Source of the DNA: Heptranchias perlo
Taxonomy: Eukaryota
Assembly (NCBI RefSeq): GCF_035084215.1
Contig: NC_090341.1
Location: 15,624,001-15,688,000 of the forward strand
DNA length: 64,000 nucleotides
Direction: 5' to 3'
Positions within the stretch are counted from its first letter, which is position 1. Every line of letters starts with the position of its first letter. Shown one piece after another: positions 10,826 to 11,335 of this stretch. The notes beneath the pieces are model-generated. The model was not told the DNA's origin. It ran no database searches and saw nothing but the letters and a program-made list of their open reading frames with translations. The translations under genes and the position numbers were made by a program.

Positions 10826-11335
10826 AGTTGCAGTTCCAGATCTCGCCATATAGTGGCGCTGCAGTGTAGCGATGAGCTGAAGTTACTGACTCTCCCCTGT
10901 GGTGGCGCTACAATACCGTGATAAGCTGCTGTTACCGACTCCCCCACGTGGTGGCGCTGCAGCGCAGCTCTGAGCTGCAGTTATCGATTCCCCCCACGTG
11001 GTGGCGCTGCAGTTATCTACTCCCCCCCAGGTGGTGGTGCTGCAGTGCAGCGATGAGCTGAAGTTACCGACTCTCCCCTGTGGTGGCGCTGCAGTACCGT
11101 GATAAGCTGCAGTTACCAACTCCCCCCACGTGGTGGCGCTAGTGCTATGATTTGCTACAGTTACCGACTCCACCATGTGGTGGCGCTGCAGCGCAGCGAT
11201 GAGCTGCAGTTATCGATTTTCCCCAGGTGGTGGCGCTGCAGTGCTGCGATGAGCTGCAGTTATCGATTTCCTCCAGGTGGTGGCGCTGCAGTTCCAATGC
11301 GCTGTAGTTCCAATCCCGGCCCATTGATGGCGCCC
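10826..11335 (+). repeat. GC-rich minisatellite with ~50-bp unit; each unit carries a CTCF-like core plus upstream module
   Basis: About 11 copies of (C)TGCAG-N12/13-CC(A/C)(C/T/G)GTGGTGGCGCT, with cores near 10846, 10895, 10944, 10994, 11027, 11076, 11126, 11173, 11223, 11273 and 11320. Confidence 0.8.

What the first reader, a model, noticed from the sequence alone, without database searches (positions are those of the whole stretch)
10826..11335. Tandem array of ~11 co-oriented CTCF-like sites (core plus upstream module) at the NEK4 promoter
Seen in sequence: a ~49-50-bp unit with cores such as CCACGTGGTGGCGCTG and CCAGGTGGTGGCGCTG, most preceded by TGCAG(T) 12-13 nt upstream of the CC. 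Established knowledge: the CTCF core is CCACCAGGGGGCGCT and the ZF9-11 upstream module is TGCAGTNCC at these two spacings. The most common departure here is T at the usual A of the core. The first unit has the canonical TGCAGTTCC at 12 nt. Inference: a promoter CTCF site was amplified into a homotypic VNTR that could form a strong, copy-number-variable, methylation-sensitive insulator or loop anchor between the liver-type ITIH cluster and NEK4. Some units also contain an E-box (CACGTG).
Basis: partly seen in the sequence, partly recalled or inferred. Interest (0 to 1): 0.8.

Follow-up and report, generated by a model that had tools for sequence, protein, structure and literature searches.

The report
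Shark promoter repeat of CTCF sites
Just in front of a shark's NEK4 gene lies an old, partly decayed repeat of eleven roughly 50-base units, about half of which still look like full docking sites for the chromosome-organising protein CTCF; clusters of this kind are known in other vertebrates, and binding here has not been measured.

Summary
The array is real: 11 co-oriented units (period 47-50 nt, once 33) at 10829-11335, ending 174 nt before the NEK4 ATG, in a CpG island 6.7 kb behind an ITIH3-like gene. Both genes match Heptranchias perlo proteins. With a recalled MA0139.1 matrix, 5 of 11 cores pass p<1e-4 (8 or 2 of 11 with other backgrounds). All 11 carry T where CTCF prefers A. Mouse H19 sites 1 and 4 carry the same T and score lower than six of the units, so the T is not disqualifying. 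The core-plus-module match beats single-unit shuffles (0-8 of 10,000 for the five best units). 'VNTR' is untested (units are about 16% diverged). No unit has the C2 CpG, so methylation sensitivity is unsupported. The selection signal is weak. Best reading: an old amplified cluster of moderate CTCF sites at a promoter, pointing into NEK4. It is a new member of a known kind, and binding is unmeasured.

The parts
10829..11335 (+). Tandem array of 11 CTCF-like units (upstream module, spacer, core, 14-16 nt linker)
10829..10861 (+). Unit 1: perfect upstream module (8 of 8) at 12 nt, weak core (2.8 bits)
10878..10910 (+). Unit 2: module 6 of 8 at 12 nt, poor core (0.4 bits); near-copy of unit 6
10927..10959 (+). 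Unit 3: module 6 of 8 at 12 nt, H19-type core with CACGTG (10.9 bits, p 3e-5)
10976..11009 (+). Unit 4: exact TGCAG at 13 nt, H19-type core with CACGTG (10.9 bits)
11008..11042 (+). Unit 5: follows unit 4 at 33 nt (linker lost); TGCAG at 14 nt overlaps the tail of core 4; core 6.8 bits (10.3 in a register 3 nt upstream)
11059..11091 (+). Unit 6: module 6 of 8 at 12 nt, poor core (-0.2 bits)
11108..11141 (+). Unit 7: exact TGCAG at 13 nt (7 of 8), H19-type core with CACGTG (11.5 bits)
11156..11188 (+). Unit 8: module 6 of 8 at 12 nt, core 7.8 bits (p 1.2e-4)
11205..11238 (+). Unit 9: exact TGCAG at 13 nt, core 10.9 bits
11255..11288 (+). Unit 10: exact TGCAG at 13 nt, core 11.7 bits (14.6 bits in an overlapping register 3 nt upstream that keeps the A)
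11303..11335 (+). Unit 11: module 7 of 8 at 12 nt, core 7.2 bits; most diverged unit
10778..10796 (+). Degenerate twelfth core (unit 0), no upstream module, also T at core position 6
11283..11314 (+). 16-bp tandem duplication of the tail of core 10; its second copy supplies the upstream module of unit 11
   Evidence: family D5
10751..11750 (.). CpG-island-like stretch (GC 0.58-0.61, CpG o/e 0.67-0.75; window average 0.34) holding the array and NEK4 exon 1
11509..11595 (+). NEK4 first coding exon (29 of 29 residues identical to the Heptranchias perlo Nek4 entry P0002)
3972..4118 (+). Last coding exon of an ITIH3-like gene (48 of 48 identical to P0121), head-to-tail with NEK4; further exons at 2869-3048 and 3757-3876
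19996..20014 (-). Nearest strong CTCF-like core in the convergent orientation (15.6 bits, no upstream module), in NEK4 intron 1; possible short-range partner

Best explanation
An old, degenerate minisatellite formed by tandem amplification of one two-part CTCF site in the CpG-island promoter of NEK4 in a sevengill shark. Shown: array anatomy, gene context, core-plus-module geometry, partial decay. Inferred: in the unmethylated island CTCF binds about half of the units (3, 4, 7, 9, 10 best; 8, 11, 5 and 1 possible), with ZF3-7 on an H19-type core and ZF9-11 on the TGCAG module. The 49-50 nt period leaves 14-16 nt linkers, so neighbours can be bound at once. Several moderate sites sum to one occupied cluster whose motifs all point into NEK4. 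It would stall cohesin arriving from the NEK4 side and so form a promoter-proximal loop anchor that also separates NEK4 from the ITIH3-like gene. I put CTCF occupancy at about 0.65-0.7 and a measurable boundary or anchor role at about 0.35-0.4.
For: Geometry equals the published one (against PMC10287918). The module match peaks only at 12-13 nt (10 of 11 units at 6 of 8 or better), whereas 0 of 12 CTCF-like hits outside the array reach 6 of 8. Single-unit shuffles give 0-8 of 10,000 for units 3, 4, 7, 9, 10. Mouse H19 CTCF sites 1 and 4 have the same G-T at core positions 5-6 (PMC2647309, PMC3762768) and score 7.7 bits against 12.4 (units 3, 4, 7), 11.7 (9, 10) and 8.2 (5). Five units pass the score of 8 used for skate (PMC10115646). 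Core conservation across units tracks matrix information (rho 0.57, p 0.01; inner units 0.48, p 0.04). The two-part motif holds from lamprey to human (PMC5504073); skate boundaries carry inward-pointing CTCF motifs; core-to-core gaps of about 30 nt match the 30-40 bp linker used for 2xCTS (PMC4562119); tandem sites and the upstream motif favour insulation (PMC12885311; PMC7087399).
Against: All 11 cores lack the A contacted by Q418 (T there has frequency 0.02 in the recalled matrix). Only 2 of 11 pass p<1e-4 on a 60% GC background. A good upstream site cannot rescue a defective core in vitro. Four of the five module mismatches in TGCAG are different changes and 9 of 11 units lost the CC, so the module is not well protected. 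Contacted against other columns: p 0.015-0.03 only with the two end units included, p 0.16-0.24 otherwise, and the variable columns include a C-run and a CpG, which mutate fast anyway. The module and the core's tail share GCTGCAG, so the module may partly come from internal duplication. Motif prediction alone failed for Hox clusters in PMC5504073 and site effects are context-dependent (PMC3310774). One report finds insulation best when the enhancer lies downstream of the core, which here is the NEK4 side, not the ITIH side. The matrix is recalled, and no binding, methylation, Hi-C or other-shark data were available.
Confidence: 0.55

Rival explanations
1. Neutral relic: a GC-rich promoter minisatellite that started from one (possibly once real) CTCF site, or resembles one by chance, and now decays; at most one or two units bind and copy number does not matter.
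For: No significant protection of contacted bases among inner units (p 0.16-0.24); 3 of 11 cores are poor and the module is eroded; a second, unrelated minisatellite lies 450 nt away; internal GCTGCAG duplication can produce the module; a genome holds many minisatellites, so a 1e-4 to 1e-3 single-unit match will occur somewhere.
Against: The two most diverged units (8-17 differences in 33 from the others) keep the best modules at exactly 12 nt; spacer indels stay at 12-13 nt in 10 of 11 units; the CpG at core position 12 is kept in 10 of 11.
Confidence: 0.25
2. Promoter element rather than boundary: a clustered (2xCTS-like) CTCF/CTCFL platform that keeps the NEK4 promoter open or docks it to enhancers, with CTCFL sharing it in testis.
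For: Ends 174 nt before the ATG inside the CpG island; 2xCTS regions are enriched at active promoters and bind CTCF dimers or CTCF with BORIS; sharks have a testis-biased CTCFL (PMC7471279). Compatible with the best explanation up to the last step.
Against: No expression, occupancy or TSS data; modules for ZF9-11 are linked in the literature to insulation.
Confidence: 0.15
3. An array for another factor, most simply bHLH proteins (USF, MYC/MAX, E-proteins) on the CANNTG embedded at core positions 2-7; the invariant T is kept because it is the T of the E-box.
For: CANNTG in 7 of 11 units in one register, with the two middle bases the variable ones; T invariant in 11 of 11 and in unit 0.
Against: 4 of 11 units lack an E-box; it explains neither the conserved TGGCGC nor the module at 12-13 nt; the three E-box types suit different factors (recalled); a column without change is unremarkable at about one change per column.
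Confidence: 0.05

Closest known systems
Clustered CTCF target sites (2xCTS; PMC4562119, passages)
   Same: Two or more close motifs, same strand, about 30 nt between cores, at a promoter.
   Different: Eleven units made by tandem amplification, each with an upstream module; occupancy by CTCF or CTCFL not shown; shark.
Mouse Igf2/H19 ICR CTCF sites (PMC2647309, PMC3762768, passages)
   Same: Co-oriented sites with G at core 5 and a non-A at core 6; units 3, 4, 7 differ from sites 1 and 4 at three bases, each toward the general consensus.
   Different: H19 sites have the C2-G3 CpG that makes them methylation-sensitive; none of the 11 units does. H19 has four sites, not a 50-nt minisatellite; no imprinting is implied here.
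CTCF-bearing tandem repeats DXZ4, ICCE, FIRRE (PMC6125249, passages)
   Same: Tandem repeat whose units carry related CTCF motifs; proposed or shown loop anchors.
   Different: Units are about 3-5 kb (DXZ4, ICCE), X-linked and tied to X inactivation; here the unit is about one CTCF footprint and the whole array is 0.5 kb.
Tandem directional CTCF insulators at Pcdh and Igh; IL3 insulator and Sox2 insertion screen (PMC7087399, PMC12885311, passages)
   Same: Several same-direction sites; upstream motif present; additive insulation proposed.
   Different: Those sites are functionally tested and mostly have the canonical A; they are not a minisatellite at a promoter.

Membership tests
Two-part CTCF site (core plus upstream module) | Core matching the CTCF matrix at p<1e-4 | tested here: inconclusive
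   In register 5 of 11 (uniform), 8 of 11 (window) and 2 of 11 (60% GC) backgrounds; matrix recalled.
Two-part CTCF site (core plus upstream module) | A at core position 6 (ZF6 Q418 contact) | tested here: not met
   T in 11 of 11; known H19 sites 1 and 4 also have T, so not absolutely required.
Two-part CTCF site (core plus upstream module) | TGCAG-type module 12 or 13 nt before the core | tested here: met
   10 of 11 at 6 of 8 or better, 5 of 11 with exact TGCAG; 0 of 12 outside hits.
Two-part CTCF site (core plus upstream module) | CTCF binding in vitro or in vivo | not testable with these tools
   No DNA-binding assay or shark ChIP data available.
Two-part CTCF site (core plus upstream module) | Host CTCF with the vertebrate specificity | not tested
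   Shark CTCF residues not examined; literature shows the two-part motif in lamprey, chicken and human, 11 fingers in shark CTCF and motif enrichment at skate boundaries.
2xCTS clustered sites | At least two motifs close together | tested here: met
   Five passing cores within 350 nt, 47-50 nt period.
2xCTS clustered sites | Double occupancy by CTCF or CTCF with CTCFL | not testable with these tools
   No footprint or ChIP data.
Methylation-sensitive (H19-type) insulator | CpG at core positions 2-3 | tested here: not met
   0 of 11; CpG at 12 in 10 of 11 and at 4 in 3 of 11.
VNTR | Copy number varies among individuals | not testable with these tools
   No vertebrate DNA collection; 16% unit divergence and 0 of 36 identical pairs argue against fast turnover.
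TAD boundary / enhancer-blocking insulator | Insulation minimum, cohesin occupancy or enhancer blocking | not testable with these tools
   No Hi-C, RAD21 or reporter data.

The most novel reading that the evidence does not exclude
A minisatellite whose unit is one whole CTCF footprint: a 16-17 nt duplication turned overlapping sites (31-33 nt period) into side-by-side ones (47-50 nt), and amplification built a multi-site anchor out of deliberately sub-optimal, E-box-containing cores on which CTCF and bHLH factors compete. Copy number and unit type would then tune insulation between ITIH3 and NEK4 across sharks, showing tandem-repeat turnover as a route to new boundaries alongside transposons.
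Probability: 0.12. Interest if true: 0.65.

Novelty: new member of a known kind. Interest (0 to 1): 0.4.

Why it matters
If bound, it is a natural, graded series of two-part CTCF sites (good module with poor core, good core with partial module, both spacings, one overlap) at a single locus. That makes it a compact test of how weak sites add up and whether the upstream module offsets loss of the central A. It would also be a case of a boundary built by minisatellite amplification in a cartilaginous fish. I found no paper on this locus (search 34: CTCF, NEK4, ITIH1, ITIH3, boundary; 4 listings, none about it) or on shark tandem CTCF arrays (search 44; 9 listings, none relevant). Searches returned kilobase-unit repeats and clustered-site papers; I saw only listings for most, so small-unit precedents are not excluded. 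Clusters of CTCF sites at promoters and in tandem repeats are well known, which caps the surprise.

Tried and rejected
No published CTCF matrix could be obtained as text: a full-text search for matrix counts found 0 papers; the energy matrix of PMC5694663 is a figure and one of its two supplements could not be searched; the one PMC3310774 supplement opened held no matrix (8 others unread). All scores therefore rest on a recalled MA0139.1 matrix, checked only by its column sums (913-908) and by scoring the paper's canonical core at 21.2 of 21.6 bits; those unseen supplements could change the cost assigned to the T. The shark ChIP-seq paper (doi 10.1038/s41559-018-0673-5) is not held. The first shuffle test had thresholds rounded above the observed scores and was replaced. 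Coding role rejected: 0 Pfam hits for two of the ORFs across the array and 11 of 12 chondrichthyan and coelacanth NEK4 entries printed begin at the residue matching 11509. Structured RNA rejected: best Rfam E-values 0.46 and 0.8; DNA fold z -2.6 is explained by repeated palindromic GCTGCAGC words. Dispersed repeat rejected within the window: no outside blastn match. Purifying selection over the whole unit: not significant in 5 of 7 comparisons. MYB-like and RFX half-site words in the module are six-mers and were set aside. Orthologous DNA from other sharks, individuals and any ChIP, Hi-C or bisulfite data stayed unchecked; only prokaryotic, phage and plasmid DNA collections were offered and none was searched.

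Full report
Context. An exon at 23057-23323 is 100% identical to the NCBI Nek4 entry of Heptranchias perlo and 93-97% to other sharks and rays. Mapping that protein places the start codon at 11509 and exons out to about 44600. The last exon of an ITIH3-like gene, also identical to an H. perlo entry, ends at 4118 on the same strand. The array thus lies 6.7 kb behind the end of ITIH3-like and ends 174 nt before the NEK4 ATG, inside the only CpG-island-like stretch of the window outside mobile-element ORFs (ORFs). The transcription start is unknown.

The observation. The repeat is found by both repeat tools. Anchoring on the right half of the core gives 11 units with spacings 49, 49, 50, 33, 49, 50, 47, 50, 50, 47 and a degenerate twelfth core 65 nt upstream (alignment). 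Exact TGCAG stands 12-13 nt before the core in 5 of 11 units, at 14 nt in one, and with one mismatch at 12 nt in five. Against a paper-derived module consensus, 10 of 11 units reach 6 of 8 at 12 or 13 nt, only the two end units keep the final CC, and none of 12 CTCF-like hits elsewhere in the window reaches 6 of 8. These are the two spacings measured for CTCF (PMC10287918: passages, one section part and supplement passages).

How good are the cores. No matrix could be had from a tool, so I used MA0139.1 counts recalled from memory. All carry T at core position 6, which costs about 5.5 bits and removes the A that Q418 contacts (PMC10094706, passages). The mouse H19 sites 1 and 4 have the same G-T step (PMC2647309 and PMC3762768, passages) and score 7.7 bits on the 14-mer, below units 3, 4, 7 (12.4), 9, 10 (11.7) and 5 (8.2). 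The T therefore weakens but does not exclude binding. Two stronger single cores lie elsewhere in the window, at 19996 (minus) and 28117 (plus), without modules.

Chance. Whole-window patterns give 5 and 4 matches, all in the array, against at most 1 and 0 in 100 shuffles, but the copies share one ancestor and the patterns were written after seeing them. Shuffling single units gave a core as good as observed in 38-209 of 10,000 for the five best units, and core plus module at 12/13 nt in 0-8 of 10,000; for the poor units 2 and 6 the figures are 45 and 64. This favours descent from a true two-part site, without genome-wide correction.

Selection. Across units, conservation of the 19 core columns tracks matrix information (rho 0.57, p 0.01; inner units 0.48, p 0.04). 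Comparing contacted with other columns gives p 0.015 and 0.029 with all 11 units over module, spacer and core, but p 0.16-0.24 in the five comparisons restricted to inner or full-length units. The variable columns include a C-run and a CpG. The signal is weak and leans on the two end units.

History. Inner units differ by 16% with 0 of 36 identical pairs, while the 25-bp repeat in intron 1 differs by 8% with 60 of 406 identical pairs. Units 2 and 6 are near-copies, as are 4, 9 and 10, so blocks were duplicated. The core tail and the module share GCTGCAG. Unit 5 follows unit 4 by loss of the 17 nt between two such words, and a 16-nt duplication at 11283-11314 supplies the module of unit 11. I infer that overlapping sites at 31-33 nt were spaced out to 47-50 nt by short duplications; the same fact means the module may owe part of its presence to duplication mechanics. 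Copy-number variation is untested.

Methylation. Only mCpG at core 2-3 lowered binding in vitro (PMC5694663, passages), and a strong upstream site reduces that effect. No unit has this CpG; 10 of 11 have one at position 12, a position that PMC3310774 mentions together with position 2 (passages). The methylation-switch idea is not supported by sequence.

Mechanism. Most likely, CTCF occupies several moderate sites in an open island, neighbours can be bound together given 14-16 nt linkers, and all motifs point into NEK4. In skate, boundary motifs point into the domain (PMC10115646, passages), and the two-part motif is shared from lamprey to human (PMC5504073, passages). The cluster would then be a left-hand anchor for loops over NEK4 and incidentally separate it from ITIH3-like. 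Upstream modules and tandem copies favour insulation (PMC12885311 and PMC7087399, passages); the first reports best blocking for enhancers downstream of the core, here the NEK4 side, while the second finds orientation-independent insulation. All of these functional steps are inference. Rivals are a neutral relic (0.25), a 2xCTS-like promoter platform shared with testis CTCFL (0.15; PMC4562119 and PMC7471279, passages) and an E-box array (0.05).

Comparison and verdict. It works like 2xCTS clusters and tandem CTCF insulators, has H19-type cores without the H19 methylation CpG, and differs from DXZ4 and ICCE in having a unit of one footprint rather than kilobases (PMC6125249, passages). Passages of 10.1101/2024.01.11.575070 and PMC11293539 added nothing decisive. 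Membership as a bound CTCF cluster, a VNTR or a boundary could not be tested. It is a real and tidy sequence feature, a probable new member of a known kind; interest 0.4.

Noticed in passing
window 11785-12834: A 25-bp pyrimidine-rich minisatellite of about 43 copies in NEK4 intron 1, far more homogeneous than the CTCF-like array (8 distinct units among the first 29) and the better VNTR candidate.
   Followed up: partly
window 11353-11365 and 10753-10766: RFX X-box-like words on both sides of the array (motif recalled; the strict pattern occurs 5 times in the window, so near chance). NEK4's ciliary role is recalled, not checked.
   Followed up: partly
window 19996-20014 (-) and 28117-28135 (+): The two strongest single CTCF-like cores of the window (15.6 and 16.7 bits), both inside NEK4, without upstream module; the first is convergent with the array.
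   Followed up: partly
window 10786-10794, 10845-10850, 11325-11333: Units 0, 1 (reverse strand) and 11 contain ATGGCG, the core of the YY1 motif (recalled), unlike the inner units.
   Followed up: no
window 10100-10136: A strong splice-donor-like word (CAG/GTGAGT) 700 nt upstream of the array that matches no ITIH or NEK4 exon; possibly an unannotated non-coding exon.
   Followed up: no
window 38804-40303, 54902-55924, 42665-43513: Long ORFs resembling Penelope-like retroelements (recalled resemblance), CpG-rich, including an inverted pair around 42900-43200; LINE-like reverse transcriptase ORFs at 34633-36187 and 47534-49369.
   Followed up: no
   Followed up: no
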